Origin: Bacteroidota bacterium
Lineage (GTDB): Bacteria > Bacteroidota > Ignavibacteria > 0-14-0-80-59-12
Assembly (NCBI GenBank): GCA_049973045.1
Contig: JBMFJZ010000001.1
Span: 190,316-254,315, forward strand
Direction of reading: 5' to 3'
Length of the DNA stretch: 64,000 nucleotides
Shown: positions 1 to 48,511 of the stretch, in pieces
Layout: each line of letters opens with the position of its first letter
How positions within the stretch are numbered: the first letter of the stretch is position 1
The notes under the pieces: generated by a model
The model's input: the letters and a program-made list of their open reading frames with translations, nothing else
The model's database searches: none
Told to the model about the DNA's origin: nothing
Made by a program: the position numbers and the translations under genes

Positions 1-645
1 CATGACCGATCTCGAAATTTGATAGGCTTCCCGCCAATATTTTCGCATCGCCGTGTTAGCAGAATGCTTATGAAGTTTAATCGGATGCAAGAGCCCCCAA
101 AGATAAACATACTCGATCCGTTTGTTTTGAGCAGTATAGAACAAATTGATTATGGTCTCCACACCGTAACCGGAGTTCCTGATCTTTTCGGTTACTGGAA
201 GTATATCTTTCTTGAAGACAGCACGTTCTCCTGCGATTGATTTAAATGGATTCATTTTCTTGTCGAGAACATTTTCGGTCGGATGCCCGATCACCATATC
301 TGCTTTTCCATCCCACAGTGGACTTAACAAGAGTGGAACGTAACGCTCCTGAAAATTCAAGAGGTCAGCATCGACAAAGAGTAGAATTTCGCCTTGCGCT
401 TTCGTTATTCCTTCAGCCATAGCAAATCCTTTTCCTCTGTTATGAGGGAATTCGATAACTCGTACCCTGGGTTGATTTGTAAACTCTTTTAGGATTCCGC
501 TTGTACCATCTGTTGAACCATCATTGATGACGATAATTTCGTTCACTTCCTTTGCGGCGATCAATGCTTTCACAACTCCGGATAGCGTTTGTTCTTCATT
601 GAAAGCGCATACAATGGCGGATACTGAATAATTGCTGCTGGTCAC
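1..645 (-). CDS. Glycosyltransferase family 2 (partial; 3' end beyond window edge)
   Basis: Not in the ORF track because it runs off position 1. Manual minus-strand translation from GTG at 645 (RBS GGAG upstream) gives MTSSNYSVSAIVCAFNEEQTLSGVVKALIAAKEVNEIIVINDGSTDGTSGILKEF...VDADL, the classic GT2 signature; no stop before position 1. Confidence 0.8.
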   Translation of the reverse strand, partial: MTSSNYSVSAIVCAFNEEQTLSGVVKALIAAKEVNEIIVINDGSTDGTSGILKEFTNQPRVRVIEFPHNRGKGFAMAEGITKAQGEILLFVDADLLNFQERYVPLLLSPLWDGKADMVIGHPTENVLDKKMNPFKSIAGERAVFKKDILPVTEKIRNSGYGVETIINLFYTAQNKRIEYVYLWGLLHPIKLHKHSANTAMRKYWREAYQISRSVM

Positions 646-694: not shown

Positions 695-2179
695 CTACTG
701 TCTTTCATCGGTCTGCCGATGTGTCCTGTGTTTTTCATCCTGGTGCTCCAGGTAGAGCTCCTCCCATATTGGATCAAGAAGTTCGGCAACCTTTTCATCA
801 TATTGAATCATTGCATTGTAGTATTCAGGATCGCGAAGGGCATCTTCAGCCGATGGGTATCCGGGTTTAGCGTTGGTTTTCAAGAATAGATCATGCGCCT
901 GTTCATGGTGGTCACGGATGAAGCAGGGTCGGATTTCGTTACCGCGACAATGCGGCTGCCGCATGTAGTTATATGATCGTTGCCAATTACGTATGCCGTT
1001 GAAAAGGTCGGAAAAGAGCGCATCGGTTAGCGTCTTGCCCTTAGCGTAGAGTTCATTGACATTATCTTTCCAGTAGGGGATAAACACACACGGATAGATA
1101 TTGCCATTCCAGTCGATGTAGAGATATCCGCCGGAGCGGCCGGCGGAAATGCAGCCGGAAGAAAAAGTCCCACCGTTCCAGAAATCGGCTACAAACCGGC
1201 GCTCTTTTCGAACCAGTTCCTGCTCCCGGTCCCACATTTGTCGCCGTGTAAGAGGAGGGACCTGCCACGAAACATCTACTCCACGACCAATCGGCATGTA
1301 CTGGAATATCCACTCATAGATTGCGCCCCGTTCGTCGAAATAGTACTTAACCATCTCTTCTGAGACCAGGAGCTCCGCATTTGCAGAAGTAGCGGTTACG
1401 GAGATACCAAAGGGCACACCTGCATTCTGCAGGTTTTCAAAAGCAGCTAAGATGCGCCTGAACGTACCCTTGCCGCGGCGCTCGTCAGTCTCTTTCTCAA
1501 AGCCTTCTACTGAGATGGCGGGCGTCATATTACCGACCTCGGCGAGTCGCTCCGCTGTCTTTTCATTAATGAATGTGCCATTGGTGTAAACAAGAAAATA
1601 TTGTTCTTGGTGGCGCTTTGCGATTTCGATGATGTCTATACCGTCATCACGCCACATAAACGGTTCTCCACCAGAAATGACGGTGAACCAGCTTCCCCAT
1701 TTTTCATATTTCTCTTGAAGTATCCGCTCAACCGTTGCCGTTGATAGATGGGGCAAGCCTTTTGGAAGGCTAGCAGCGTAACAGTCTTTACACTGTAAGT
1801 TGCATCTACCCTCAGGCGAAAGAGTCAAAAAACCAGGTGGCTCTATACCGTATTCGTCACGAAACCTACGGCGCGCTTCTTTCCCACTGCCAAATCCTAA
1901 GAACTCCCGCAGAAATAGATTGATCATTCTGTCTCGCACAGCGGGGGAGCCGCGGTCATATGCCTTTAGGGCGGCATGTATCACATTGGTTGCCATGTAA
2001 AACTTATCTTCCCGCTCGCGTCTTGGTCCGATCTCTATTGGGCTCCCTTGATCAACCATGAATTTGCATGCCACCTTCTCTATAGGTGGCAAAGCTATCT
2101 TTGAAATTGCGTGCAGACTAAGCAGACGCAAAGTCTGTTTAGTTATGAAGTAAATAGCGTCCTTTTCGTTCAGTTTCAT
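695..2179 (-). CDS. Radical SAM enzyme with ~110 aa N-terminal extension and Cys-rich (SPASM/twitch-like) C-terminal region
   Basis: 494 aa ORF; CxxxCxxC motif CNLQCKDC at residues 126-133 (nt ~1781-1804), followed by GGEP; further Cys at GCISAG..YPC and HCRGNEIRPC. ATG at 2179 preceded by GGAGGTG. Confidence 0.75.
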   Translation of the reverse strand: MKLNEKDAIYFITKQTLRLLSLHAISKIALPPIEKVACKFMVDQGSPIEIGPRREREDKFYMATNVIHAALKAYDRGSPAVRDRMINLFLREFLGFGSGKEARRRFRDEYGIEPPGFLTLSPEGRCNLQCKDCYAASLPKGLPHLSTATVERILQEKYEKWGSWFTVISGGEPFMWRDDGIDIIEIAKRHQEQYFLVYTNGTFINEKTAERLAEVGNMTPAISVEGFEKETDERRGKGTFRRILAAFENLQNAGVPFGISVTATSANAELLVSEEMVKYYFDERGAIYEWIFQYMPIGRGVDVSWQVPPLTRRQMWDREQELVRKERRFVADFWNGGTFSSGCISAGRSGGYLYIDWNGNIYPCVFIPYWKDNVNELYAKGKTLTDALFSDLFNGIRNWQRSYNYMRQPHCRGNEIRPCFIRDHHEQAHDLFLKTNAKPGYPSAEDALRDPEYYNAMIQYDEKVAELLDPIWEELYLEHQDEKHRTHRQTDERQ

Positions 2180-2284
2180 TTTACACCTCCGCGTTTTTCG
2201 AAATACGCCTTATGGCATCTTGGAATTCTTCAGTCTTCTTCTACATTTCGCGACGGTATCCAATGGATATTTTCTCAAAGATGC

Positions 2285-3043
2285 TCAATATTTCTCCAAA
2301 TTTCGTTCCGTGAAAAGATCATCAGAAAGATTGCTGTCAAATTTTATTTCGCTCAGGATCATCTTTGTGCTATGTTCGTCCTTGAGATCCTTCATCTCAG
2401 CTTCCTTTGACACCCAGTAGCTGCCGATTTTCTCAATGTTCTTTCTCTCCATGACCTTCCAGAGTTTTCCAGCCTTATCATAAAACTCGGTCTTCACGGG
2501 ATAGAAAATGTCCTTGCGCACCCAGATTTTTAGTTTGCCATAGTCCTTGCTTCTACCCTCTTTTGGCGTCAGCTCTAATACATAGTGCTCTGCAGTGGTT
2601 TGAACGAGCTTTGCGTTATAGTTATCTGAATACTTTAGTGTGCCTATATCGTCGTATGTAAAGTCCGTGCCTGCGAATTTTTGATTCTTCACATGTGAGG
2701 CAATCCGGCGTACTTTCTTGAACGCAGGCAAGTATATGTATTGCACATCGTTGGGCAGCCCAAGAAAACCGATACCTCGTTGGTCGGCTGGGGCAAGGAA
2801 ACGGACAAGTCTTTTATTGTCGCCTTTCTGCAGCATTCTGATACTTCTTTCCCTTTCGCTGCCTTTGCTATCAATAAGTATAAGCTTTGCCCTGAGATCC
2901 TGATCCTTTGGCGCATTGATTACCGATTCAAATTTTGTCAGGATTTCTTCAGCGCTTGGTTGCTGTGCAGTTAAAGGTTTAGAAATCAGTAAAGTTGCCG
3001 CAAACAAGGGGACAACAAACGTGAGGCCCTGATTGATTGTCAT
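2285..3043 (-). CDS. LolA-like outer-membrane lipoprotein-sorting family protein (secreted)
   Basis: 252 aa with N-terminal signal peptide; size and composition resemble LolA-like proteins that accompany MMPL/RND exporters. Family assignment from memory, not searched. Confidence 0.55.
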   Translation of the reverse strand: MTINQGLTFVVPLFAATLLISKPLTAQQPSAEEILTKFESVINAPKDQDLRAKLILIDSKGSERERSIRMLQKGDNKRLVRFLAPADQRGIGFLGLPNDVQYIYLPAFKKVRRIASHVKNQKFAGTDFTYDDIGTLKYSDNYNAKLVQTTAEHYVLELTPKEGRSKDYGKLKIWVRKDIFYPVKTEFYDKAGKLWKVMERKNIEKIGSYWVSKEAEMKDLKDEHSTKMILSEIKFDSNLSDDLFTERNLEKY

Positions 3044-3081: not shown

Positions 3082-3924
3082 TTATTGCTTAACATACTTG
3101 GGTGGATTCCATCCATTTCGATTCCACGATTTTAGTTCGATGTCAATTGTTCCAAGAATGACGTTCATTTTTGCTCGTATTGGAATTTGAGCAGTGTCGT
3201 TGCTGAACCAGCCTTTGAATGGGCCGGTCAAGCCAAAAATCCCCGTGAACTCTGCAGTTCCATCGAACTCGATTACGTCAATTGGGTATCTAACAGCAGC
3301 GATGTTGACGCTCGTGCGCTTATTGTAGAAGTTCAGATATGTGGTCCCCCGCGAGCCGTCAACCATGGTCGGTACGGCGATTAGCTTGCCACTTTTGACG
3401 TTAGCGCGTGCGAAATATAGAAGCGACAACCCGTCCTGCGTCTTACTTTGTATTCGAACAGTGTCAACTTGTTCGATTTGAGCATCGGTTTTAAAGGCGC
3501 TGTCGACGATCCCTTTCTTTATGAGCAAAATTCCTTCTTGTCTATCGAAGTCGTATTTAAGTATTCTCCAATGTTCTCCTTCCTTCTCCCACGCTATGAA
3601 CGACTGTGAAAAGCATTCTTTGTCCATTGTGGTTTCAAAAATGGAATGAAGGTTTACAAAGGGAATCCCTGAGTACGAGTCGATATATGCAATCGCAGTA
3701 TGCCGAGTGCTGTTCTCGATATTTTCTGAGCTAAGCATTTTAGTCCGGATTGTACCTATCTTGATGAACCACCAGCCGACTTCGTACGTGAGGTCTTCGC
3801 CTACCTGAAAGAAACCTGAGTCCTGGACCTTTATTGGTTTAATGAGCATCATGGAGATCAGCCCAAACACAATGCCGCAGAAATAGATGTATATCTGTGT
3901 AAGCTTTTGCTTTCTTTGTCTCAT
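3082..3924 (-). CDS. Hypothetical membrane-anchored protein
   Basis: 280 aa ORF with N-terminal hydrophobic helix (IYIYFCGIVFGLISMMLI); start overlaps the upstream MMPL stop by 4 nt, suggesting translational coupling. Confidence 0.5.
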   Translation of the reverse strand: MRQRKQKLTQIYIYFCGIVFGLISMMLIKPIKVQDSGFFQVGEDLTYEVGWWFIKIGTIRTKMLSSENIENSTRHTAIAYIDSYSGIPFVNLHSIFETTMDKECFSQSFIAWEKEGEHWRILKYDFDRQEGILLIKKGIVDSAFKTDAQIEQVDTVRIQSKTQDGLSLLYFARANVKSGKLIAVPTMVDGSRGTTYLNFYNKRTSVNIAAVRYPIDVIEFDGTAEFTGIFGLTGPFKGWFSNDTAQIPIRAKMNVILGTIDIELKSWNRNGWNPPKYVKQ

Positions 3925-6638
3925 TGCTTTGCTGTATCTGTTTTATTCTGACTCTTATTGGATGCAAAATTTCCTATGAACTTCGCTTTCGTGAATAGTA
4001 TCAAAGCTGGTAAGAAAGTAATAGCGCCAACACTGCTGGCGACCATTGTTATTGCGATAAGCATTCCGAATCGCTGCAGTGGGACAACTTCGGCAAGAAG
4101 AAGAGTAAGGAATCCCGCCATCACAGCAAGCGCATTGATGAGAATAGCTCTGCCAGTTGTCTCCAGGGTTTTCCTCAGCACGTGTGGAACTTTATTATCT
4201 TTTTCGCCGCCATCAGAGCCATATTGTGCAAATTCCTCTTTGAACCGGTTTGTAAAGTGAATCGAGTAGTCGATGCCGACACCAACAGCAATGCTTCCGA
4301 CCAGTGCTGTTGCAACGTCCAGGGGAATTCCTGCAAATCCCATAAGTCCGAAATTGATGATAAGAGTTAGCACGATGGGGGTAACGCTGATAAGCCCACC
4401 AACGACGGAACGAAGTTGGAATGAAAGGAAGATCAATACAAGCGCTATTGCGATAACAAGACTTTGAAATTGACTGCGCATGATGCTGCTGTCTAAGTGC
4501 TGATATATGAGCCCCATCCCTGTCTGGCGAAAAGAGAAGTGAAGACGTTCCGGATCGTCCGGATGCTCCTTACCAAGGGACAGTTGTTCGTAAACCCGGA
4601 CTGGTATAGCAACGTTTTGCTGCTGAAAATCAGCTATGGCATCTCGTACTCCGTTGAGGAAGGAGAGATCGTTCTGCAATTCACTTGGGAACAGAGGAAC
4701 AAGTTGAACAACGCTGTTCTCAATTTTTTCTGATGACTTGCTTCCCTCTTGCCCGTTGAATTCATACGCGGTTTGCATGAGAACATCCACCACTTCATTT
4801 TCATTGATAGCAGATTGTGGATATCTTTTCCTTGCTTCCCATTCTATGAGTCTTGCTGCTCTGTTCGCTTTATACTCCTGAAGAATTTTCCTATCGGCTT
4901 CTGATAATGAGTTGTTGGAACTGAGATTCATAACAATAAGGTCTGTATCCAGTGCGTTGATGTAGTTTTCAATTGCATCGATAACGAATCTGCCTCGTTT
5001 GGTATCCACTGTCCCTAAGGTCGCTTGAATAACTCCTTCAGTTTTGTCAACGTTTACAAGCTGGTTCATCATCTCTTCGCCTTCGAGAAAGAACCACAGG
5101 TTGGTCACCTTGTCTCTTGAATCAGGAATGGTCTTCTGATCGTTCATGACTTCATGCATTTCCGCAATGAGGCTGGATGCAGATTGAGCGTTATGAACGT
5201 CGCTTAACGACTCGAGAAATTTTCCCATACGCCACATCTCTTTCAGCACAAAAGGATTCTGCAAGTCGCCCTGAACAAAGATTGTAATTGGTATTGAACC
5301 TCCGAACTTCTTCTCCATAAACTCCTGGGCAGTCCGAATGCTGGCGCCTGGCTTAAAGTAATCCACCATGTTGACTCGTCTATCAATGCGCAGAATTCCA
5401 GGGGTGCTGATGATAATCAGAATAATCGTCCCGATAACAATAAGTCGTTCATACCTGAAAACGAACTTAGCAACTTGATCCATAAATTTTGCTACAAACG
5501 CTGCGTTCTCAATGAAGCCGGTTTGACGGTTCTTTTCATCATGTAGTAGTGACAGTACCGCAGGGACAAATGTTACAGAGATGATCAGGGCGAACAATAC
5601 TCCAAGTGCTGAAAAGAGCCCGAACTCGCGAATCATTGTGAGATATGAGCCAAAGATGAAAGATAAAAACCCCACCATTGTTGTTAGAGCAGCAAGCAAA
5701 ATAGGGATCGATACCTCACCCAATGATTTTGCAAGTTGGTCTGCATTACCATTGCCTGATCGCACATCCTCATCATATCTGCTGATCAAATGGATGGTAT
5801 ACGCACTTCCGACAGCAATGAGAATCACAGGAATAATATCCGAAATTACGGTTAATGGAATTCCCAAAATGCTCATGCTGCCGAGTACCCAAATCATGCT
5901 CATAAGCACGCTGAGTAGAGGCAGGGCTACACCGCGAAGGGTTCCAAAACTCAGGATAAGCGTGATGCCAACAAGAGCACTTACAATTGGAACCAGGGTC
6001 TTGAGATCTTTAAAAATAAGATCGGTGAGTTCGATCATTTGGAAAGGGATGCCACTGAAATACACTTTTTCCGATAACTTCGCCTGTTCCGTAATCTCCT
6101 TCAGTTCCCGGGCAACGGCTAACCTGTCCGCACTCTGTTTGATTCGACAAATAATCAGGGCCGCTTTCGCATCAGATGAAACGATTCGACCAACGTATAA
6201 GTCTTTTGAAAGGGCATATCTTCTTAGGTGATCCAGTTCTTCGGCAGTTTGCGGCAGATTGTTTTCATCTATCAGCTTACTAACTTCAAGTCCACCGTTG
6301 GTCTTCTTAATGTCAAGGATATTAGCTAGGCTTGTTACTTCTGTTACACCATCAACGAGTTTGAACTGTTCTGTAAGGCGATTGATGTCCTTTATAGTTT
6401 CACGAGTGAAAATATCGTCTGACTCAACGGCAATGAAAGCAAGTGAATTGCCTCCAAATTCTTCTCCGACTTTGTTGAATAATTGTACCACAGGATCATC
6501 CTTTGGCAGATAGCTCAGAATATCGCTGTTCACCTTCAGATTGGTCATTTGGTAGCCAAGCACCAATGACAAAAGGATGGTTACAACTACGATATGAATT
6601 CGGTTCGTAAGTACAGCAGCAAAGAATCTTTCGATCAT
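3921..6638 (-). CDS. MMPL/RND-superfamily exporter
   Basis: 905 aa with two blocks of multiple transmembrane helices separated by large soluble domains, typical MMPL (HpnN-like) architecture. Confidence 0.85.
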   Translation of the reverse strand: MIERFFAAVLTNRIHIVVVTILLSLVLGYQMTNLKVNSDILSYLPKDDPVVQLFNKVGEEFGGNSLAFIAVESDDIFTRETIKDINRLTEQFKLVDGVTEVTSLANILDIKKTNGGLEVSKLIDENNLPQTAEELDHLRRYALSKDLYVGRIVSSDAKAALIICRIKQSADRLAVARELKEITEQAKLSEKVYFSGIPFQMIELTDLIFKDLKTLVPIVSALVGITLILSFGTLRGVALPLLSVLMSMIWVLGSMSILGIPLTVISDIIPVILIAVGSAYTIHLISRYDEDVRSGNGNADQLAKSLGEVSIPILLAALTTMVGFLSFIFGSYLTMIREFGLFSALGVLFALIISVTFVPAVLSLLHDEKNRQTGFIENAAFVAKFMDQVAKFVFRYERLIVIGTIILIIISTPGILRIDRRVNMVDYFKPGASIRTAQEFMEKKFGGSIPITIFVQGDLQNPFVLKEMWRMGKFLESLSDVHNAQSASSLIAEMHEVMNDQKTIPDSRDKVTNLWFFLEGEEMMNQLVNVDKTEGVIQATLGTVDTKRGRFVIDAIENYINALDTDLIVMNLSSNNSLSEADRKILQEYKANRAARLIEWEARKRYPQSAINENEVVDVLMQTAYEFNGQEGSKSSEKIENSVVQLVPLFPSELQNDLSFLNGVRDAIADFQQQNVAIPVRVYEQLSLGKEHPDDPERLHFSFRQTGMGLIYQHLDSSIMRSQFQSLVIAIALVLIFLSFQLRSVVGGLISVTPIVLTLIINFGLMGFAGIPLDVATALVGSIAVGVGIDYSIHFTNRFKEEFAQYGSDGGEKDNKVPHVLRKTLETTGRAILINALAVMAGFLTLLLAEVVPLQRFGMLIAITMVASSVGAITFLPALILFTKAKFIGNFASNKSQNKTDTAKQ

Positions 6639-6691: not shown

Positions 6692-7264
6692 TTACCTTGT
6701 CTCAATTCCTTTGAACAACACATCGATAAGTGAATTGACACTTTTTTCAATGTCAGATAAGGATGTTTCAACCGTCCACGGATATTCCAAGCCTTTCAAG
6801 GCTGTGACGATAGCAAATGCAGTCAGCCCAGCGTCTTCAACTGCAAAAACCTTTGATGCGATCCCTTCCTCTAAAATGCTTTTAACTAAGTTGAGTTCCT
6901 CCTGAAAGCTCTCTCGACGAGCCTTCTCAATGAACGGATAGTGTCTAAGATAATCATCTTTCAGCGCACTGTAATAATTCGCAAGCTCCTTTAGAAAGCG
7001 CATTCTCGTTAATACAAAGGCTCGAAATTTTTCTTGAGGCGTTTTCGCCTGCTGTATAGCTTCGTGAATCCTCTCTCGTAAGTATCGGGATTCTTTATCA
7101 ATTATCTCGGCAAAGATCTGTTCTTTGGTTTTGAAATAATGGTAAATCGTCCCCTTTCCAATATGCGCCAGCTTTGCAATCTCGTCTACGGTTGTCTTCT
7201 TTAGTCCAAACCGAGCGAAAAGATTTTGGGAGGTTTTAAGTATGAGTTCTTTAGTGTTTATCAT
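6692..7264 (-). CDS. TetR/AcrR family transcriptional regulator
   Basis: 190 aa; N-terminal HTH KKTTVDEIAKLAHIGKGTIYHYFKTKEQIF is the canonical TetR signature; sits at the head of the MMPL gene set. Confidence 0.85.
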   Translation of the reverse strand: MINTKELILKTSQNLFARFGLKKTTVDEIAKLAHIGKGTIYHYFKTKEQIFAEIIDKESRYLRERIHEAIQQAKTPQEKFRAFVLTRMRFLKELANYYSALKDDYLRHYPFIEKARRESFQEELNLVKSILEEGIASKVFAVEDAGLTAFAIVTALKGLEYPWTVETSLSDIEKSVNSLIDVLFKGIETR

Positions 7265-7745
7265 GACGCTTCTATATACGATGAATCGACTAAAATGGTT
7301 TCACGGTACAATGTAGCTAAAAGAGTTTAAATTGTCAAGAAAAAGTGTTGTGTCTACATTCAAAATCCATTTCCGAATTCATTTGTGGCAAGCGCAGTTA
7401 AATCTTCTGTGACTTGGCTTAAAGAGACGAAGCTTGGGGAGGCTCTTCGAGGTGTGAGATCATGTGTGGGCCGGCCTTGGCGCCGGAGGCGCCATGCTCT
7501 AAGCGGTTTTGCTAATTTGCTTCAAGTATCTGCTTATTCCGCGAGACCTTATCCGATTTTCCTTATTGCGTGCCTCCGATCTGGTAGGGAATTCTTCTAC
7601 GTGAACTAACACCCATGGTATCCCGCTACGAGTTGATTTATTCTCACCTGAGTTATGCTCACCCAGGCGATTCCATAAATCCTCAGTGCTCCCGACATAA
7701 TAGCTGCCTGTCCTGGAGCTTCTGATTATGTAGACATAGTGGATG

Positions 7746-7820
7746 TCGGGGCGGGCGGATTTGAACCGCCGACCTCACGGTCCCGAACCGTGCGCTCTAA
7801 CCAGACTGAGCCACGCCCCG
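7746..7820 (-). tRNA. tRNA-Pro (anticodon CGG)
   Basis: Minus-strand sequence CGGGGCGTGGCTCAGTCTGGTTAGAGCGCACGGTTCGGGACCGTGAGGTCGGCGGTTCAAATCCGCCCGCCCCGA folds as a cloverleaf: 7 bp acceptor, GGTTCAAAT T-loop, anticodon loop TTCGGGA. No encoded CCA. Confidence 0.85.
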
Positions 7821-7882
7821 AGTGTTGCTTTATAAGCAACGCTGAACGATATTTATTATACTCAAACTCGGAGAAAGAATCA

Positions 7883-8974
7883 ATGTTTCCGTTCTCGCTC
7901 CCGAGGCTGACGTTCCTCGCATTGCAATTTCTCATCCTCTATTGTTTCGTTGCCAACAATGTTCTTGCCCAAACCTTTCGCATTCTTCGACCCGTTCGTG
8001 ACAGGTGGGAGACAAATGGCAGTTACCTCTACGCTGAGCCGAATATCAGGGAGCCTAATCGCGGACATACAGGAATAGACGTTCTTGTTAAGTTTGATTC
8101 CGTATTCGCAGTCGATGATGGCATTATCAGAACGATCTCTTATGAAGAGGGGGGAGCAGGCTATTACATTTTCCAGGAATCTCGGTGGAACGGCCAGCCG
8201 GTCTGGTTCGGATACTTCCATCTCAGCAAGAACAATGTGAAACATGTCGGTGACTCGGTAAAAGCTGGGGAACTCATTGCAATCTCGGGAAACACCGGCT
8301 ATTCAACTGGACCCCATCTGCACTTTGAAATACGTATTGGAACACTGGACTATTCAGGTCCGGAAAATCGCCGCAATCCTGAATTATGGTTCGCAATGGA
8401 GGGGATGGGGGCAGTTTACGGGCATGTTCCGAATGCGGCAAATGCAACTCGCGTCGACATTTACCCTGACCCGAAGCCGCGACCTCCCTATACGACATAT
8501 TCCTATTCACTGACCTATACTTTTGATGGATTGATCGGAAGTGACGACATCTACAAGGAGAACTATGCTATTGGAGATGTCCAGCCGGGGACGTACATTA
8601 TCACAGCCCTGGGAGGATTGTATAGACGCCAAGTTCATGTAACTTCCCGCGCTGTGGTTGATGCTGATAGGACATCGAATGTCAAGGATGCTTCTCCTTT
8701 CAGCCCGAGCACTTTTTTCCTTGCACAGAACTACCCGAATCCGTTTAATAGTTCGACAAGAGTCGCATTCTATGTACCAAGAGAAGGTCTAATCGATCTC
8801 TTTGTTAATGACGTTCTTGGTAGGAGCATTCATCATTTGTGGAAGGGCGAAGCAGCAAAAGGATGGCATGAGGTTGAATTCGATGCCGTGGCTATGCCAA
8901 GTGGAGTTTATTTTATTGTTTTGTCGGTGCCGGGAGAATTTTTTCAGGTGCGAAAAGCTTTGCTGCTGAAGTAG
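7883..8974 (+). CDS. M23 family peptidase with T9SS C-terminal sorting domain
   Basis: LytM motifs HTGIDV and GNTGYSTGPHLHFEI; C-terminal LAQNYPNPFNSSTRVAF. Start moved to ATG 7883 (RBS GGAG) because the track ORF start at 7739 reads through the tRNA-Pro gene. Confidence 0.8.
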   Translation: MFPFSLPRLTFLALQFLILYCFVANNVLAQTFRILRPVRDRWETNGSYLYAEPNIREPNRGHTGIDVLVKFDSVFAVDDGIIRTISYEEGGAGYYIFQESRWNGQPVWFGYFHLSKNNVKHVGDSVKAGELIAISGNTGYSTGPHLHFEIRIGTLDYSGPENRRNPELWFAMEGMGAVYGHVPNAANATRVDIYPDPKPRPPYTTYSYSLTYTFDGLIGSDDIYKENYAIGDVQPGTYIITALGGLYRRQVHVTSRAVVDADRTSNVKDASPFSPSTFFLAQNYPNPFNSSTRVAFYVPREGLIDLFVNDVLGRSIHHLWKGEAAKGWHEVEFDAVAMPSGVYFIVLSVPGEFFQVRKALLLK

Positions 8975-20243: not shown

Positions 20244-20276
20244 AGCCTCGGTTTTTCCTGTTTCCCTGGGGGGTTG

Positions 20277-21614
20277 ATGAAGCGTGTTGGGTTTTATACA
20301 CTGGGCTGCAAGGTAAATTATGCGGAAAGTGCGTGTATTGCTGCGATGTTTCAGCAGCATGGCTTCCAGCTTACAAGCGAGCCGGGTGAAGCCGATGTTT
20401 GGATTATCAATACTTGCAGTGTAACAGAAAATGCAGACCGAGAGTGCCGACAGCTCATCCGCAGGATACATCGGAAGGCACCAGAGGCATTTGTTATTGT
20501 TACCGGGTGTTACGCCCAACTCCAGCCAGAGCGGGTAGCCTCCCTTGAAGGTGTAGATGCTGTTCTCGGGTCTCGAGAGAAAAGCCAAATCTTCGAACTT
20601 ATCTCTGAGTTCAAACGCCGGGGCGTTCCACTGATCGCTGTCTCTCCGCACAATGAGCTTGATGATTTCTGGTTAGCGGATTCAAGCGGCTTTGGTGAAC
20701 GGACTCGAGCCTTCCTGAAAATTCAAGACGGATGCGACTATAACTGCTCCTTTTGTGTTATTCCGCAGGCAAGAGGGGCATCGAGGAGCGAGCCGATCGA
20801 TAGCCTCATCATTCGCGCACGGTCGCTTATCAAAAGGGGATATAAGGAAATTGTGCTCACCGGAGTGAATGTTGGAGACTATGGGAGAAAGATCGGTGGC
20901 AGTTTGTATGAGCTTCTTTGTAAGTTAGATGAACTTGAAGGGCTGCAGCGTCTTCGCATCAGTTCTATTGAGCCCAATTTACTAACAGATGAGATAATCA
21001 AGCTTGTTGCCCGTTCAGAGAAAATTTGCCCGCATTTTCATATACCGCTTCAGAGTGGAAGTGACGCTGTGCTTGCGAGAATGCGGCGCCGATACAAAAG
21101 TGTGCTTTATCGCGATCGTGTTGAAACAATCTTATCACACATTCCCCATGCGGGCATCGGTGTGGATGTGATCGTTGGGTTCCCGGGTGAAACGGAAAGA
21201 GAATTTGAGGAGACATATCGATTCCTTTCAGATCTACCTGTCTCTTACTTTCATGTTTTCAGTTACTCGGTGCGACAGAACACGCCTGCAGCATCGATGG
21301 GGGGAGTGATCTCCCCTCGGGAGCTCGAGCGTCGTAGCAGAACTCTTCGAACACTTGGTGTTATGAAGCATCGTCGCTGGATGGGAAACTATATCGGTGA
21401 GCAAGTTTCTGTGCTTCTGGAGGGGGACTACACAGATGATGGTGCATTTATGCATGGCTTCACCCCAAATTATATGCGGGTGCGTCTTCCTGCACAGCGA
21501 AATCTCGAGAACGAGATCGTTACAGCCCGTGTCGTTGGGCTGCTCGGTGATCTTGCGCAAGGTACTTTCTGTCCATCTGAAGATGAGATTGTGATCCCCC
21601 AAGCCAATCTATGA
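20277..21614 (+). CDS. mtaB: tRNA methylthiotransferase, MtaB-like (radical SAM, MiaB/RimO family)
   Basis: N-terminal MTTase domain (FYTLGCKVNYAES), radical SAM CDYNCSFC, C-terminal TRAM-like region. Confidence 0.75.
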   Translation: MKRVGFYTLGCKVNYAESACIAAMFQQHGFQLTSEPGEADVWIINTCSVTENADRECRQLIRRIHRKAPEAFVIVTGCYAQLQPERVASLEGVDAVLGSREKSQIFELISEFKRRGVPLIAVSPHNELDDFWLADSSGFGERTRAFLKIQDGCDYNCSFCVIPQARGASRSEPIDSLIIRARSLIKRGYKEIVLTGVNVGDYGRKIGGSLYELLCKLDELEGLQRLRISSIEPNLLTDEIIKLVARSEKICPHFHIPLQSGSDAVLARMRRRYKSVLYRDRVETILSHIPHAGIGVDVIVGFPGETEREFEETYRFLSDLPVSYFHVFSYSVRQNTPAASMGGVISPRELERRSRTLRTLGVMKHRRWMGNYIGEQVSVLLEGDYTDDGAFMHGFTPNYMRVRLPAQRNLENEIVTARVVGLLGDLAQGTFCPSEDEIVIPQANL

Positions 21615-36516: not shown

Positions 36517-38898
36517 TCATTTTATTAGCAACATTTTCCTCGATTCGGAATAACTTCCTGCAATCAGCCGTACTATGTAAACTCCACTGGGTAGACTGGA
36601 GCCATTGAACTGGGTCGTGTAGAAGCCTGGTGTGAGTTCTCTATCTATCAGGACAGCCACTTCCTGCCCGAGCACATCATAAACACGGAGAGATACTTTT
36701 ACCGCCGATGGCGGCACAAGTGCCTGCGAACCTATTGAAAACTCGATCGTCGTAGTCGGGTTAAATGGGTTCGGATAGTTTTGATACAGATGATAACCTT
36801 CAGCAATAGGAGGAGTTTCCACGACGCCGGTGGTTGAGCGTGTCTTAAATCGCCAAACCTCTGACCATTTGCTCGAACCGTAGGCGTTTATTGCAGCAAC
36901 CCTCCATGCATAGACTGTGCTTACCTGAAGAGAATCTTTTGTGAACTTGTAAGTCGTATCAGCTACCAGCACTGTATCGAGGATTGGTGCGGCGAAATCG
37001 ATGCTCCTGGAAACCTGAAGCCTATAGTTTAATGCGGCTGCCGATGGATGCCATATAAATGTTGGCTTGATCGAGATTTCTGTAGACAGATTGTTTGGAG
37101 AAGCAAGGAGTGGGGTCCTCGGAAACGCCGTGGTGTAATTCCATGTGTCACTGAACTGACCCGATCCACCTGCATTATTAGCTGCGACTCTCCAATGATA
37201 TTTCTGCAGACCCTCCATTCCAGTTATAAGTTTCAAAGTGTCTCTATATGCAAGTTCATCCACCAGAAGGTTACTTGCAAAGCTTGAATCCTGCGAGACT
37301 TGAACTCGATACGAAGCGGTTAGATACGAGCTGAACCAGTGTAGCACAACAGTATCGCGCTCATTCTCAGAACCATTTGCAGGTCCAGCTAAAAGTGGCG
37401 GCTGTGGCGCAGAGATCGTTACAGTGTTGCTCGATGAGCTTTCGTTATAATTGCGGTCAACAGCCGTAACGATGTAAGAATATGGACCTTTCCCTGGCGG
37501 GGTAGGAGGGGGAGTGCTCCGAGTTCCCTCAACTGAGATGATGTTTCGAGCGTCTGCGAGTTCGTCCGGAGTGATGTTTGAATGATCAAATCGGTAGATG
37601 ACGTAACGTGTAGCTGTATCCCCATCAATTGCAGGAACTGGAAGATCCCACCTGAGAATTGGTGGAGCATTTCCAGCTTGTGCATATTGTAGATTTTGTG
37701 GAGGATTAGGTGCAATGGAATCTTTCCATGCCATTTGGGGAAGAAGGGAGGGATAGCGATAGTAAACGAGCTTCAGTGAATCAGCGAAATTTCCATCGTT
37801 ACCGGTTATGTTCAAAGCTCTGAAGAAAATGCTTCCACCTACCTTTGCATTTGCTCTATTCTGCCTGATCTGCTGTTCAATTTCTCCGGGTCCCCAATTC
37901 GGGATTCTATATGCAGCTTGTCCCACGTATAAGTGTCTCCCATTCAGTTGCTCCGCCCACCATGGCATCAATTTGCCATAATCCTGATTGCCTCCATTGG
38001 GCCAATAAAGCTGCGGTGCGATGTAATCGATCGTTTTTGCATTAAGCCAGGCAAGCGCGTCAGCATACAGGACATTGTAAGCATCAAGTCCAATAATTCC
38101 CGGCGGAATTCCGTTTTTCCATATCCCGAACGGGGAGATTCCAAATTTCACCCATGGCTTGATTGCATTTGTGCTATCGTGCACTTGTTTGATCAACAGG
38201 TTAATGTTATCGCGTCGCCAATCTCCTCGATCTGTGAATCCGCGATTATAATGAGCGAAAGTTGAATCGTCTTCATTTGTAATTTGATTGGGGGGGTAGG
38301 GATAAAAATAATCGTCAAAGTGCACACCATCCACATCGTATCTTCGAACGACATCCATGATTACTGACGTAACATAATCTCTAACCTGTGGAAGTCCTGG
38401 GTCAAGTATCTTGAGCGTACCGAAGGTCAATATCCAATCTGGATGCTTGACAGAAACGTGATTGGGGTCGAGCTGATAGCTTCCAACACTTCTAACAGCT
38501 CTATATGGATTAAACCATGCATGGAGCTCCATGCCGCGTTTATGCGTCTCCTCTATAGCAAACTGGAGCGGATCATAGTATGGAGAAGGAGGCTGTCCCT
38601 GCTTTCCCGTTAGCCAGTATGACCATGGCTCAAGTGTCGATTGATAGAATGCATCACATTCAGGGCGAATCTGAAAAATCACCGCATTTATGCCGGCGTT
38701 TTTGAGCTTGTCAAGTAGTGTTACCAGTTCATTTTTTTGTTGATATGCTGGGAGTCCTCGTTGAGAAGGCCAGTCGAGATTAGTGACTGTCGCAATCCAT
38801 GCTCCGCGAAATTCACGCTTGGGCGGAGCGGAGGTTTGAGAACTTATGTTAGATACAGCAAATATCAGAAGTAGTGACAAGGAGTTCCTAAGACGCAT
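36517..38898 (-). CDS. Glycoside hydrolase family-10-like (GHL10/YngK-type) protein with Fn3-like domains and T9SS CTD
   Basis: N-terminal EFRGAWIATVTNLDWPS is the GHL10 hallmark; central Fn3-like repeats; C-terminal HLYQNYPNPFNPTTTIEF. Confidence 0.75.
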   Translation of the reverse strand: MRLRNSLSLLLIFAVSNISSQTSAPPKREFRGAWIATVTNLDWPSQRGLPAYQQKNELVTLLDKLKNAGINAVIFQIRPECDAFYQSTLEPWSYWLTGKQGQPPSPYYDPLQFAIEETHKRGMELHAWFNPYRAVRSVGSYQLDPNHVSVKHPDWILTFGTLKILDPGLPQVRDYVTSVIMDVVRRYDVDGVHFDDYFYPYPPNQITNEDDSTFAHYNRGFTDRGDWRRDNINLLIKQVHDSTNAIKPWVKFGISPFGIWKNGIPPGIIGLDAYNVLYADALAWLNAKTIDYIAPQLYWPNGGNQDYGKLMPWWAEQLNGRHLYVGQAAYRIPNWGPGEIEQQIRQNRANAKVGGSIFFRALNITGNDGNFADSLKLVYYRYPSLLPQMAWKDSIAPNPPQNLQYAQAGNAPPILRWDLPVPAIDGDTATRYVIYRFDHSNITPDELADARNIISVEGTRSTPPPTPPGKGPYSYIVTAVDRNYNESSSSNTVTISAPQPPLLAGPANGSENERDTVVLHWFSSYLTASYRVQVSQDSSFASNLLVDELAYRDTLKLITGMEGLQKYHWRVAANNAGGSGQFSDTWNYTTAFPRTPLLASPNNLSTEISIKPTFIWHPSAAALNYRLQVSRSIDFAAPILDTVLVADTTYKFTKDSLQVSTVYAWRVAAINAYGSSKWSEVWRFKTRSTTGVVETPPIAEGYHLYQNYPNPFNPTTTIEFSIGSQALVPPSAVKVSLRVYDVLGQEVAVLIDRELTPGFYTTQFNGSSLPSGVYIVRLIAGSYSESRKMLLIK

Positions 38899-39262: not shown

Positions 39263-40549
39263 TCACTTCATCAGAATCATCTTCTTCGTCAAATGGGTCC
39301 CTTCAGGTGCATCCAGTGTGTAAATGTAAACGCCCGAAGGCAAATTGCCGGCATTGAATGTCACCGAATGATACCCAGCAGATTTGTAGCCGTCAACTAA
39401 CGTGGCAACTTCTCTGCCGAGCACATCGTAGACTCTCAATGTAACCTTACCGGAATTCTTCAGAGCGAAGTCGATCTTCGTCGAGGGGTTGAACGGATTC
39501 GGATAGTTCTGAGAGAGCTCATATGCGACCGGGACTTCACCTTGTTCCCTAACTCCTACAGAGGGTGTACGGACGAACATCTGGACCGGGGTAACAGTGC
39601 TAATATTAAACGCAGCAACGTAGACAGTATCCCCTGTGGGGCTGAAGGCTATTCCTCTCGGCCGTGGATCGAGTGAAAGGTCACCCTGCCACTTAATGCT
39701 GTCGACGATCGTTTTAGTGGCAAGGTCATATGCATACCAGGCATAGGGGCTGTATGGTGGATCGGGCAATCCGGAAGTTGTGTTTCCTGAGCCTACCCAC
39801 ATCCACCCTGTCTTTGGATCCCAAGCCATCGTCTCAACGACGAACTGAGTTAAGATAGAATCCTGCAAGACGTATGGACCGAGCGACCCGTTGTCGCTAT
39901 GGTAGACGTAGACCTTTCTCAGGCTATAGCGTGGCACATAAACGTCGTTTCCATTCTTGGATACAAGGATGTCGCGTCCGTAGCCATCCACAGAACTGGC
40001 GACGTTGCCGGCAGGAGAGAAGTCGGGGTTAAAAACTGCTACTGCACCGCCTGGGAGCACGGGTGCGAGGAAAACCTCCCCCAATGAATCATCAGCAACG
40101 CCGGCAATAGACTTTGTGTACCCTGAGATGGGGTTCATGACCCGGTTCATCCCCTGCCCGGTCTTGTAATTGATCCTCCAGAGTCGAGTGCTCCATTTGA
40201 CAGAAAGAATGTTCCCTTGGTAATCTGTTCTCATCCCGTAGCCAGCACCGTTTAGTGTATCGGTGATGCCGCCTGCGCTCAGCATTTTGATTGGTGAGAA
40301 TGGAGCCGGCGTCCCGTCTGGATAGAACACATAGATTGCACCGGTCTTCACTCCAGGAGCCAGACTGTCGTTGGATCCGCTGTATGATTGTATCCATACT
40401 TTCCCTTCCGGATCAACTGCGATACCGTTGTTAACCCCTGAAGGGAGTTTAAAACTGGTATCCGGGAAAGCTTTTACAAATTGCCACTGCGCAATGGCAA
40501 AAGGAGTGGCGACAATCAATAGAATCAAGATAAGAGCAAGTTTTTTCAT
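39263..40549 (-). CDS. Secreted beta-propeller-like protein with T9SS CTD
   Basis: Signal peptide MKKLALILILLIVATPFAIAQ; start at ATG 40549 preceded by GGAGGT; C-terminal LSQNYPNPFNPSTKIDF. Confidence 0.7.
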   Translation of the reverse strand: MKKLALILILLIVATPFAIAQWQFVKAFPDTSFKLPSGVNNGIAVDPEGKVWIQSYSGSNDSLAPGVKTGAIYVFYPDGTPAPFSPIKMLSAGGITDTLNGAGYGMRTDYQGNILSVKWSTRLWRINYKTGQGMNRVMNPISGYTKSIAGVADDSLGEVFLAPVLPGGAVAVFNPDFSPAGNVASSVDGYGRDILVSKNGNDVYVPRYSLRKVYVYHSDNGSLGPYVLQDSILTQFVVETMAWDPKTGWMWVGSGNTTSGLPDPPYSPYAWYAYDLATKTIVDSIKWQGDLSLDPRPRGIAFSPTGDTVYVAAFNISTVTPVQMFVRTPSVGVREQGEVPVAYELSQNYPNPFNPSTKIDFALKNSGKVTLRVYDVLGREVATLVDGYKSAGYHSVTFNAGNLPSGVYIYTLDAPEGTHLTKKMILMK

Positions 40550-40689
40550 TCCTGACCTCCGTTCGACTAAGTTTAATGGTTGAATAACGTGAGCAATTTT
40601 CTCGACGCTCAACTTGTGAAACTTCTAAGGGAGCCCCTTGCATCACCTCCTTCAATGGCGATTTCTCATATAACAATGACCTCTATTTG

Positions 40690-48099: not shown

Positions 48100-48511
48100 G
48101 AGCTGCTTCTCCTCTTTTACAGAGTGAAACAAGAAAGAAATGATGATGTGCTATTAGCGGTTTGCTGAGACGCGCGATATCGCACCGTCGGTTGAGCATC
48201 AAAATCCTCCGATTAGGAATATACAAAAAATACGTAGTGATGTCAAGCTTTTGGGACGACTTTGCTGGCTCAACTTGAATAATCAAGCAGAATCCTCATC
48301 GACCCCAGACACCGCACCCCTGTTTTCAGTTATTGATTTTTTGGCGCTGTATCTACTTAGTTAGGGGCATGTAGCGCTCCAATCAACAGGATTTTGCACC
48401 CTTGAAACAAACCTTGCATCTCTTTCAAGAATTTTGCAGAATAATGGCGGCGCTCTGTATCGCCTCTCCTAAAGTTTGGCGAGTTTTCATTACATTTGAT
48501 GGGATAGTACT

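What the first reader, a model, noticed from the sequence alone, without database searches (positions are those of the whole stretch)
695..2179. Radical SAM enzyme with long N-terminal extension and auxiliary-cluster cysteines, of unassigned function
The CxxxCxxC motif sits at residues 126-133, not near the N-terminus, and the C-terminal half carries four or five further Cys in a SPASM/twitch-like spacing. Sitting next to a lipid-type exporter, it could be a lipid-modifying radical SAM enzyme (for example an alkyl/ether-lipid or membrane-spanning-lipid synthase-like activity), but that is speculation from context only.
Basis: partly seen in the sequence, partly recalled or inferred. Interest (0 to 1): 0.55.

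Follow-up and report, generated by a model that had tools for sequence, protein, structure and literature searches.

The report
Membrane-spanning lipid synthase homologue, export operon
This gene encodes a radical SAM enzyme related to the bacterial enzyme that welds two fatty-acid tails into one membrane-spanning lipid, and it sits in an operon with lipid-handling and lipid-export genes, so it is a new member of a recently described family, not a new kind of enzyme.

Summary
The ORF at 695-2179 (minus strand, 494 aa) has CxxxCxxC at residues 126-133 behind a roughly 115-residue helical N-terminal extension. It has four more Cys in the C-terminal half, and three of them (C343, C364, C419) are invariant in every homologue examined.

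No Pfam or NCBIfam family claims the protein. It is nevertheless a full-length homologue of Thermotoga maritima TM0824 (AAD35906.1/AGL49750.1): 36% identity, pairwise E 1e-71, profile-profile probability 100%. I infer that TM0824 is Tmari_0825, the experimentally confirmed membrane-spanning lipid synthase Mss. This accession-to-locus-tag link is an inference, not a direct look-up.

The window protein belongs to a sister clade (FCB group, candidate phyla, CPR, DPANN) that is about 36% identical to the Thermotoga clade. It is not a Tes/GDGT-MAS member and not a full SPASM protein. It looks like a one-auxiliary-cluster, twitch-type enzyme.

Gene context across about 80 loci is lipid-centred: TetR, FabH, patatin, ABC1 kinase, PgpA, glycosyltransferases and MMPL/LolA-like transporters. 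In the window the operon reads TetR - HAE3/MMPL - DUF3108 - LolA-like - rSAM - GT2, and continues with patatin - LysE - DUF1302-like in a 92%-identical relative.

Novelty is modest: a new member of a known kind. The link to the transporter appears undescribed.

The parts
695..2179 (-). Mss-family radical SAM enzyme, 494 aa (stop codon at 695-697)
   Evidence: ORF; Pfam Radical_SAM 7e-22; 36% identity and E 1e-71 to Thermotoga TM0824-type protein; hhalign probability 100%; AF2 pLDDT 91.7
1835..2179 (-). N-terminal helical extension (aa 1-115)
   Evidence: Five helices at residues 5-110 in the AF2 model. Present with similar length in both clades, with CxxxCxxC at 120-127 in T. maritima
1781..1804 (-). 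CxxxCxxC radical SAM cluster motif (C126, C130, C133)
   Evidence: invariant
905..1192 (-). Twitch-like auxiliary-cluster region (aa 330-425) with invariant ADFWN, C343-x15-G-x4-C364, and P-C419-x3-D423
   Evidence: Invariant columns. The Pfam SPASM match is partial only: 18.7 bits, below the 21.5 cut-off
2186..2190 (-). GGAGG ribosome-binding site, 6 nt before the ATG
   Evidence: Sequence read
2285..3043 (-). LolA_like / TP_0789-like periplasmic lipid-carrier-type protein with an N-terminal signal-like segment
   Evidence: Pfam LolA_like 2e-59; hydrophobic N-terminus; recurs beside the rSAM in L010, L022, L037, L045, L050, L084 and L085
3082..3924 (-). DUF3108 protein with an N-terminal hydrophobic segment; overlaps the MMPL stop by 4 nt
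   Evidence: Pfam DUF3108 1.7e-10
3921..6638 (-). HAE3/MMPL-type RND transporter with a sterol-sensing-like domain
   Evidence: Pfam MMPL 5e-49 and Sterol-sensing 1e-15; NCBIfam HAE3 5.5e-92 and HpnN-like 3e-41, both below their cut-offs
6692..7264 (-). TetR-family regulator (FadR-like), first gene of the operon
   Evidence: Pfam TetR_N 2e-15. Best NCBIfam match is Bacillus-type FadR, below cut-off. TetR is the commonest neighbour of the family: 15 of 150 neighbour ORFs. It is also adjacent in Thermotoga and Methanosphaera
7310..7338 (-). Sigma-70-like promoter match (TTGACA-17-TACATT) upstream of tetR
   Evidence: This is a consensus match only; the region holds no more such matches than shuffled sequence
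1..645 (-). GT2 glycosyltransferase, cut by the window start, 49 nt downstream of the rSAM
   Evidence: Pfam Glycos_transf_2 7e-28. In the 92%-identical relative the operon continues GT2 - patatin - LysE - DUF1302-like

Best explanation
The gene encodes a soluble or peripheral radical SAM enzyme of the Mss (membrane-spanning lipid synthase) superfamily.

Proposed mechanism. The CxxxCxxC [4Fe-4S] cluster cleaves SAM to a 5'-deoxyadenosyl radical. This radical abstracts a hydrogen from the omega or omega-1 carbon of a fatty-acyl tail of a membrane glycerolipid. The lipid radical is then coupled to the tail of a second lipid. The product is a C30-C34 diabolic or iso-diabolic-type diacid that spans the membrane.

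A single auxiliary Fe-S cluster would sit in a twitch-like domain, held by C343, C364 and C419, possibly with D423 as a fourth ligand. By analogy with Tes, it would handle the second electron or hold the radical intermediate. The helical N- and C-terminal extensions would form the lipid-binding part.

The gene is expressed from a TetR-controlled operon. The operon also holds a GT2 glycosyltransferase (and a patatin lipase in the closest relative) and an HAE3-RND / LolA-like / DUF3108 (/ DUF1302-like) envelope system. The product, or a glycolipid made from it, is therefore probably handed across the periplasm to the outer membrane.

Shown here: the ORF, its motifs and their conservation, homology to the Thermotoga protein, the gene order, and the recurrent lipid context. 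Inferred: the identity TM0824 = Tmari_0825, the chemistry, the auxiliary cluster and its ligands, and the transport step.
For: Homology.
- BLASTP against the Thermotoga TM0824-type protein P0274 gives 36% identity over residues 66-450, E 1e-71.
- P0274 shares its 90% cluster with T. maritima AAD35906.1/AGL49750.1.
- Profile-profile comparison of the two clades gives probability 100%, E 1e-111, 384 aligned columns.
- Both clades share CxxxCxxC, GGEP, RRGxG, ADFWN, the three auxiliary Cys and the roughly 115-residue N-extension.

Identity of TM0824.
- In the Thermotoga locus the 482-aa gene lies at the TM0824 position: Fe-ADH, PheS, PheT, TetR, rSAM ... gyrB. The TM numbers of these anchors are from my own knowledge.
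- The Tmari numbering runs one above the TM numbering here. Papers name encapsulin as Tmari_0786, EncFtn as Tmari_0787 and Thi4 as Tmari_0788. From my knowledge these are TM0785-0787.
- T. maritima Mss is Tmari_0825 (PMC13159169).

Taxonomic spread.
- The family occurs in FCB, Spirochaetes, Chloroflexi, Deltaproteobacteria, Planctomycetes, Armatimonadota, Omnitrophota, CPR, Woesearchaeota, Gammaproteobacteria, Synergistetes and Thermotogae genera including Thermotoga, Thermosipho, Pseudothermotoga, Fervidobacterium and Mesotoga.
- This mirrors the published Mss-homologue distribution.

Gene context.
- Neighbours in 64 loci include TetR 15, ABC1 7, patatin 6, phasin-like 5, PgpA 4, MMPL 3 and glycosyltransferases.
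- FabH, CdsA, UppS and a CrtC/AttH-like protein also occur next to the gene.
- MMPL plus LolA-like lies beside the gene in the window, KSB1, WOR-3, Rectinema, Bacteroidales and TA06.

Structure.
- The AF2 model is confident (pLDDT 91.7).
Against: - The window protein is in a sister clade (A). It is only about 36% identical to the clade holding the T. maritima enzyme and carries a clade-specific insertion of about 14 residues between C364 and C419. No clade A member has been tested.
- The link AGL49750.1 = Tmari_0825 is inferred from a numbering offset, not read from the record. A second 323-aa rSAM/SPASM gene lies next door in Thermotoga and would be Tmari_0825 if the offset were 0.
- The T. 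ethanolicus Mss sequence could not be obtained.
- The literature notes that Mss homologues do not always coincide with detected membrane-spanning lipids.
- No Ger/PlsA gene was found among the ORFs of the window that were annotated.
- The auxiliary cluster, its ligands and the transport role are untested inferences.
Confidence: 0.6

Rival explanations
1. It is a lipid-modifying radical SAM enzyme, but the reaction differs from tail-to-tail coupling. Possibilities are an intramolecular cross-link, a cyclisation, a desaturation, or another C-H functionalisation of an acyl or alkyl chain. The substrate would be the lipid or glycolipid that the neighbouring transporter exports.
For: Clade A and the Thermotoga clade share only about 36% identity. 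Clade A carries an insertion near the auxiliary-cluster region. Neighbours vary and include other tail-modifying candidates: B12-rSAM in L016, L020 and L054 and a CrtC/AttH-like protein in L037. Related enzymes such as Tes, Gms and Mss perform different C-C couplings on similar scaffolds.
Against: All catalytic and cluster motifs, and the overall architecture, are conserved with the Thermotoga protein along 384 columns. TetR adjacency is shared by both clades. Published surveys already treat these proteins as Mss homologues.
Confidence: 0.2
2. It acts on a hydrophobic small molecule that is not a membrane lipid, such as a signal, pigment or xenobiotic. The TetR regulator would sense that molecule and the HAE3-RND/LolA-like system would pump it out.
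For: TetR plus an RND pump is a classic efflux arrangement. HAE3/LolA-like/DUF1302 modules are general hydrophobe-handling systems. Enterobacterial and Methanosphaera plasmids carry relatives without lipid genes nearby.
Against: Recurrent neighbours in many phyla are phospholipid and fatty-acid genes: FabH, patatin, PgpA, CdsA and ABC1. Only 6-8 of about 80 loci have the pump, so the enzyme does not depend on it. It is homologous to the Thermotoga Mss candidate.
Confidence: 0.1
3. It is a peptide or protein maturase of the SPASM/twitch class, like SkfB, anSME or a sactipeptide or ranthipeptide synthase.
Against: All of those hits are far below the curated cut-offs and cover mainly the radical SAM core. 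No conserved small precursor ORF, peptidase/ABC exporter pair or sulfatase lies beside the gene in the window or in related loci. The family keeps one length and about 50% identity across many phyla, unlike RiPP maturases.
Confidence: 0.05
4. It is a cofactor-biosynthesis enzyme of the NirJ/AhbD/MftC/MoaA type.
For: The top NCBIfam hits are NirJ2 (87.6 bits), MftC (80.5) and NirJ (76.6).
Against: The scores are 3- to 6-fold below the curated cut-offs of 265-515 bits. No heme d1, alternative-heme, mycofactocin or Moco genes are adjacent. These families lack the N- and C-terminal extensions.
Confidence: 0.03

Closest known systems
Mss, bacterial membrane-spanning lipid synthase (T. maritima Tmari_0825; T. 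ethanolicus WP_129545148.1; Sahonero-Canavesi et al. 2022, PMC13159169)
   Same: Radical SAM enzyme of about 480-495 aa with an N-terminal extension of about 115 residues. It shares CxxxCxxC, three conserved auxiliary Cys, the ADFWN and RRGxG motifs, and a helical C-terminus. It is 36% identical to the T. maritima TM0824 protein over 385 residues. A TetR gene is adjacent. The taxonomic spread matches the published homologue list.
   Different: It belongs to a separate clade, with 52% identity within clades and 36% between them. It has an insertion of about 14 residues after the second auxiliary Cys, a GG insertion in the hairpin, and a divergent N-terminal sequence. Here it is embedded in an RND/LolA-like export operon, which Thermotoga lacks. 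Activity is untested.
Tes / GDGT-MAS (archaeal tetraether synthase, MJ0619, PDB 7TOL/7TOM)
   Same: A radical SAM enzyme with an N-terminal extension of similar length: CxxxCxxC sits at about residue 116 in 7TOL, and the matched stretch 112-249 aligns with query 118-252. It performs lipid tail-to-tail C(sp3)-C(sp3) coupling and is the likely mechanistic model.
Twitch/SPASM radical SAM enzymes (SkfB 6EFN, anSME 4K36, SuiB 5V1Q, MoaA 1TV7)
   Different: The CxxCx5Cx3C block of the second auxiliary cluster is absent. The Pfam SPASM score is below threshold. The substrates of those enzymes are peptides, proteins or nucleotides. They lack the N-terminal five-helix domain and the long helical C-terminus.
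HpnN (hopanoid) and BstA-C (sterol) RND-based lipid transport to the outer membrane
   Same: The operon's RND protein matches HpnN and BstA models weakly (3e-41 and 1e-17). It has a sterol-sensing-type domain. It is paired with periplasmic and outer-membrane-type partners, as those systems are.
   Different: The scores are far below the curated cut-offs (141 vs 752 bits for HpnN), so it is an HAE3-type paralogue and not an orthologue. Its partners are LolA_like, DUF3108 and DUF1302-like proteins. The cargo is unknown.

Membership tests
Mss (membrane-spanning lipid synthase) family | Radical SAM CxxxCxxC motif and SAM-binding core | tested here: met
   C126/C130/C133, GGEP, Pfam Radical_SAM 7e-22
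Mss (membrane-spanning lipid synthase) family | Homology to a confirmed Mss at the published thresholds (E <= 1e-50, identity >= 30%): T. maritima enzyme | tested here: met
   36% identity, E 1e-71 (a single-pair E-value), residues 66-450, against P0274. P0274 is in the same 90% cluster as T. maritima AAD35906.1/AGL49750.1. hhalign E 1e-111. Caveat: the equation of this protein with Tmari_0825 is inferred from gene order and the +1 numbering offset
Mss (membrane-spanning lipid synthase) family | Homology to T. ethanolicus Mss WP_129545148.1 | not testable with these tools
   The sequence was not retrievable. No Thermoanaerobacter protein appeared in the three homologue searches. Supplements with sequences are not held
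Mss (membrane-spanning lipid synthase) family | Catalyses formation of diabolic or iso-diabolic diacids from two fatty acyl chains under anoxic conditions | not testable with these tools
   Needs heterologous expression and GC-MS, as in PMC13159169
Tes / GDGT-MAS family | Full-length sequence homology to Tes, and Cys ligands for two auxiliary [4Fe-4S] clusters besides the radical SAM cluster (three [4Fe-4S] in all) | tested here: not met
SPASM-domain radical SAM subfamily | Seven-Cys motif CX9-15GX4C ... CX2CX5CX3C ... C binding two auxiliary clusters | tested here: not met
   Only CX15GX4C plus one distal Cys are present. Pfam SPASM scores 18.7 bits, below the 21.5 cut-off. No CxxC block
Twitch-domain radical SAM subfamily | Truncated SPASM domain: a beta-hairpin flanked by Cys plus a distal Cys, binding one auxiliary cluster | tested here: inconclusive
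NirJ / AhbD / MftC cofactor enzymes | Score above the curated NCBIfam cut-off | tested here: not met
   Best scores are 87.6, 80.5 and 76.6 bits, against cut-offs of 500, 265 and 515
RiPP maturases (SkfB/AlbA/PapB type) | Adjacent precursor peptide gene and an RRE or peptide-binding N-domain | tested here: not met
   No conserved short ORF or peptide-export genes were found among neighbours in about 80 loci. The N-domain is an all-helical bundle with no match to such families

The most novel reading that the evidence does not exclude
The operon is a complete 'make and deliver' system. The Mss-type enzyme, GT2 and patatin would build a membrane-spanning (diabolic-acid-type) glycolipid. A dedicated HAE3-RND / LolA-like / DUF3108 / DUF1302-like trans-envelope machine would move it, or its precursors, to the outer membrane of a diderm FCB-group bacterium.

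This would be a previously undescribed lipid-trafficking route. It would also point to uncultured anaerobic FCB and candidate-phylum bacteria as a source of branched membrane-spanning lipids (brGDGT precursors).
Probability: 0.25. Interest if true: 0.65.

Novelty: new member of a known kind. Interest (0 to 1): 0.4.

Why it matters
Branched membrane-spanning lipids (brGDGTs and diabolic acids) are widely used palaeoclimate proxies, but their producers in anoxic settings are still debated. Mss was identified only in 2022 and has no Pfam or NCBIfam model, so genes like this one are annotated simply as 'radical SAM protein'.

This work places the window gene in the Mss superfamily and defines a conserved signature for it: an N-terminal helical extension, CxxxCxxC, ADFWN, CX15GX4C and PCxxxD. 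It also separates two clades.

The repeated linkage to TetR, FabH, patatin, GT2 and an RND/LolA-like transporter gives testable hypotheses. These concern how such lipids are regulated and moved in diderm bacteria. One cultured carrier, Rectinema subterraneum, is available for testing.

Tried and rejected
- **Curated HMM libraries.** Pfam and NCBIfam gave no family-level assignment.
- **PDB sequence searches.** A single-sequence search and a profile search found only core-level matches. Tes matched at E 1e-3, so Tes membership was rejected.
- **AlphaFold DB fold search.** This search was meant to pull out named Thermotoga or Thermoanaerobacter proteins, but the library was not available.
- **Second homologue search.** The query was a Bacillota member (L021). 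It returned no named Mss-bearing genera.
- **Route that worked.** A tblastn against plasmids found a 34%-identical gene on an E. albertii plasmid. Its homologues included named Thermotogae proteins.
- **Supplementary files.** Those of the Mss papers were either not held or truncated. No accession cross-check and no T. ethanolicus sequence could be obtained.
- **Exact-sequence look-up of T. maritima P0353.** The 90%-cluster representative P0274 was used instead.
- **Last cluster look-up.** It was aimed at unnamed NCBI clusters. It found Synergistetes, Fervidobacterium and Pseudothermotoga but no Thermoanaerobacter.
- **Promoter and terminator scan.** It found no more sites than in shuffled sequence, so only the tetR-proximal match is mentioned, as a weak lead.
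- **Readings considered and rejected.** The RiPP-maturase, anSME and heme/cofactor readings were rejected on scores and context.
- **Auxiliary Cys geometry.** AF2 coordinates were not exposed, so distances between the auxiliary Cys could not be measured.
Full report
**1. The observation.** The ORF at 695..2179 on the minus strand encodes 494 aa starting with ATG. A GGAGG ribosome-binding site sits 6 nt upstream of the start. Cysteines are at 38, 126, 130, 133, 343, 364, 411 and 419.

In alignments of 20 and 100 homologues (45-92% identity), C126, C130, C133, C343, C364 and C419 are invariant. C38 and C411 are not. The pattern C343-x15-G359-x4-C364 is the first half of the SPASM/twitch motif. 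The CxxCx5Cx3C block of full SPASM domains is missing, and Pfam SPASM scores 18.7 bits against a cut-off of 21.5.

There is no transmembrane segment; the best 19-residue hydropathy is 1.08. An AlphaFold2 model built on 100 homologues is confident (pLDDT 91.7, pTM 0.91). It shows five N-terminal helices (residues 5-110), a partial TIM-barrel core, a short hairpin between C343 and C364, and a helical C-terminus.

**2. What the curated resources say.** No NCBIfam family comes near its cut-off. The best hits are NirJ2 at 87.6 bits against 500, and MftC at 80.5 against 265.

PDB sequence searches hit only the radical SAM core. With a single sequence, SkfB matches at 3e-10. With a profile, SkfB reaches 7e-16, anSME 3e-9, and Tes/GDGT-MAS (7TOL) only 1e-3 over residues 118-252.

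**3. The family.**
- The protein has thousands of homologues (3306 with E <= 1e-3 among the candidates scored).
- There are 305 clusters at 50% identity with E <= 1e-30 among 1.84 billion representatives.
- A scan of one genome per species found at least 585 loci. The best 80 come from Cloacimonadota, Fibrobacterota, KSB1, Aminicenantes, Latescibacterota, Bacteroidota, Ignavibacteria, WOR-3, Nitrospirae, Chloroflexi, Planctomycetota, Omnitrophota, Armatimonadota, Spirochaetes (including the cultured Rectinema subterraneum), Deltaproteobacteria, Bacillota, Woesearchaeota and Altiarchaeota.
- CPR members appear.

**4. Link to Mss.** This distribution resembles the one published for homologues of Mss, the bacterial membrane-spanning lipid synthase. 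Mss was shown to couple two fatty-acid tails into diabolic or iso-diabolic acids when expressed anaerobically in E. coli (PMC13159169).

The reference sequences were not directly available, so I bridged to them in steps:
- A tblastn against plasmids found a 34%-identical gene on an E. albertii IncF plasmid.
- Homologues of that gene include, at about 50% identity, proteins from Thermotogae genera including Thermotoga, Thermosipho, Pseudothermotoga, Fervidobacterium, Petrotoga, Marinitoga, Mesotoga, Kosmotogaceae, Oceanotoga and Tepiditoga. Fervidobacterium, Pseudothermotoga and Synergistetes members were named.
- The Thermotoga cluster contains T. maritima MSB8 AAD35906.1 / AGL49750.1, 482 aa, annotated 'AstB/chuR-related protein'.

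The window protein aligns to this protein type with 36% identity over residues 66-450, E 1e-71. Profile-profile comparison of the two groups gives probability 100%, E 1e-111, over 384 columns. A joint alignment shows shared invariants: CxxxCxxC, GGEP, SxEG...TDxRRGxG, ADFWN, G-C343, P-C364-x-F and P-C419-x3-D423. The N-terminal extension has the same length in both groups.

**5. Is the T. maritima protein really Mss (Tmari_0825)?** The Thermotoga locus reads Fe-ADH, PheS, PheT, TetR, the 482-aa rSAM, a 323-aa rSAM/SPASM... gyrB. From my own knowledge of T. maritima structural-genomics targets (TM0820 Fe-ADH, TM0828 PfkB, TM0833 GyrB), the 482-aa gene is at TM0824.

Papers name encapsulin (TM0785 from my knowledge) as Tmari_0786, its ferritin partner as Tmari_0787 and Thi4 as Tmari_0788. 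The Tmari numbering therefore runs one ahead of the TM numbering shortly upstream, which gives Tmari_0825 = TM0824.

An offset of 0 would instead point to the 323-aa generic SPASM neighbour. That protein is AhbD/NirJ/MftC-like. If it were Mss, homologue surveys should pick up methanogens and many other archaea. Published surveys report only DPANN and Asgard archaea, whereas the TM0824-type family shows Woesearchaeota and Altiarchaeota. I rate the identification at about 85%. It remains an inference.

**6. Two clades.** All-against-all BLAST of 364 full-length members separates two clades:
- Clade A: the window protein, 224 sequences, with FCB, candidate-phylum, CPR and DPANN members.
- Clade B: 140 sequences, with Thermotogae, Gammaproteobacteria, Synergistetes, some Firmicutes and Chloroflexi.

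Mean identity is about 52% within each clade and 36% between them. Clade A has a GG insertion in the hairpin and about 14 extra residues between C364 and C419. Function in clade A therefore rests on homology, not on experiment.

**7. Gene context.** In the window the following genes all lie on the minus strand, with gaps of -4 to 105 nt:
- TetR (6692-7264);
- HAE3/MMPL RND (3921-6638);
- DUF3108 (3082-3924);
- LolA_like (2285-3043);
- the rSAM (695-2179);
- a GT2 glycosyltransferase cut by the window edge (1-645).

No terminator-like site lies between the genes. One promoter-like match lies before tetR; it is weak evidence, since the region holds no more matches than shuffled sequence.

The 92%-identical relative on a 564-kb metagenome contig has the same order. 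It continues GT2 - patatin - LysE - DUF1302-like. An 84%-identical TA06 relative has TetR - FabH - three unknown genes - GT2 - MMPL - LolA_like - rSAM - DUF1302-like.

Among 150 same-strand neighbours within two genes, taken from 64 loci, the commonest Pfam families are TetR (15), ABC1 kinase (7), patatin (6), ArsR/MarR-type HTH regulators (5 each), phasin-like (5), PgpA (4) and PhaR-type (4). MMPL, GT1, GT2, GT4, PagL and radical SAM occur 3 times each.

Other recurrent arrangements:
- MMPL plus LolA_like accompanies the gene in KSB1 (L010), an unclassified bacterium (L022), WOR-3 (L037), Rectinema (L045) and Bacteroidales (L050).
- FabH follows the gene in L022, L037, L050 and L065.
- Planctomycete loci read PgpA - unknown - rSAM - two unknown genes - PurA - UppS - CdsA.
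- A B12-rSAM and a CrtC/AttH-like lipocalin protein occur next to it in some loci.
- TetR adjacency also holds in Thermotoga and on a Methanosphaera plasmid.

The context is consistently about fatty acids and phospholipids. It is not about peptides or cofactors.

**8. Mechanism (inferred).** By homology with Mss and by analogy with Tes (reviewed in PMC13459092), the enzyme would work as follows:
- It cleaves SAM reductively at the CxxxCxxC cluster.
- The resulting radical abstracts H from the omega or omega-1 carbon of an acyl chain of a membrane glycerolipid.
- The lipid radical couples to a second chain, giving a membrane-spanning diacid lipid.

The three invariant distal Cys would hold one auxiliary cluster. 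The invariant Asp four residues after C419 is a candidate fourth ligand; this is my inference, and Asp ligation is known in other radical SAM auxiliary clusters.

The helical N- and C-terminal parts, absent from peptide-modifying relatives, are candidates for the lipid-binding tunnel. TetR, whose best match is FadR-like, would tie expression to acyl-chain status. GT2 and patatin would add a head group or remodel the lipid. The RND, LolA-like, DUF3108 and DUF1302-like proteins carry signal-like N-termini and would move the product across the envelope. The transport step is the most speculative part.

**9. Comparison with the known, and novelty.** The gene is best filed as a new, untested member of the Mss superfamily, in the clade that the literature already lists as 'closely related' homologues in FCB, candidate phyla, Spirochaetes, Chloroflexi and Deltaproteobacteria. 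It is not Tes, not Gms-like (those are described as full SPASM proteins with two auxiliary clusters) and not a RiPP maturase.

A literature search for Mss together with MMPL, LolA or RND found nothing that links them. The operon association may therefore be new, within the limits of the held library.

**10. Verdict.** The gene is a new member of a known kind. Interest is moderate (0.4): it is useful for annotation and for the question of who makes branched membrane-spanning lipids, but it is not surprising to specialists.

The most novel reading still open is a dedicated synthesis-and-export route delivering a membrane-spanning glycolipid to the outer membrane (probability about 0.25).

Noticed in passing
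window 7745-7820 (-): tRNA-Pro(CGG) lies just upstream of the tetR operon. The 411-aa ORF 7739-8974 (+) in the mechanical ORF list overlaps it. The real M23 peptidase probably starts later, since it is 364 aa in the 92%-identical relative's locus.
   Followed up: partly
window 36517-38898 (-), 39263-40612 (-), 48512-51121 (+), 45091-48132 (-): Three proteins carry type IX secretion C-terminal sorting domains: a GHL10 protein, an unknown protein and an amidase with Big_5 repeats. There is also a TonB-dependent receptor with a CarboxypepD_reg domain. These mark the host as a diderm of the FCB group. The flanking genes are housekeeping (Der, Upp, RelA, Cmk, IspH, S1).
   Followed up: partly
L037:11763-12935 (+): In a WOR-3 genome a CrtC/AttH-like lipocalin protein lies one short ORF after the Mss-like gene, followed by MMPL - LolA_like - DUF1302-like - FabH. 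AttH-type hydratases were recently tied to hydroxylated tetraether lipids, according to the title of a 2025 preprint listed.
   Followed up: no
L016:11590-12987, L020:11408-12808, L054 (cluster c30): A B12-binding radical SAM gene sits directly next to the Mss-like gene in three unrelated genomes (Bacteroidetes, Nitrospirae, Anaerolineae). It is a candidate lipid-tail methylase or cyclase.
   Followed up: no
L081:2254-3633 (E. albertii plasmid pEA5_1); also K. pneumoniae plasmid NZ_CP077819.1: Enterobacterial plasmids carry a Thermotoga-clade Mss-like radical SAM gene, about 50% identical to Thermotoga proteins. On the E. albertii IncF plasmid it is the next annotated gene after repB. Relatives also occur in Salmonella, Klebsiella, Edwardsiella, Photobacterium and Sodalis. 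Its role in facultative anaerobes is unexplained.
   Followed up: partly
L082:5284-6996 (Methanosphaera sp. ISO3-F5 plasmid pNP174): A TetR gene is directly followed by a shorter (361 aa) relative. It keeps the three auxiliary Cys but lacks most of the N- and C-terminal extensions. It sits on an archaeal plasmid.
   Followed up: no
L083:4949-5920 (+) (Thermotoga sp. Mc24): The Thermotoga Mss-type gene is flanked by a TetR gene and by a second, 323-aa radical SAM/SPASM gene (AhbD/NirJ/MftC-like, no family assignment). This neighbour is the only alternative candidate for locus tag Tmari_0825.
   Followed up: partly
L009, L011, L044, L010, L001 (clusters c5-c3-c2): In Aminicenantes, Solibacteraceae and KSB1 loci a recurring trio accompanies the gene: a phasin-like protein, an ABC1 atypical kinase and a patatin phospholipase. 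The set is reminiscent of lipid-droplet or granule-associated proteins.
   Followed up: no
window 20274-21614 (+): A second radical SAM gene in the window is an ordinary MiaB/RimO-type methylthiotransferase (UPF0004 + Radical_SAM). It is unrelated to the finding.
   Followed up: no
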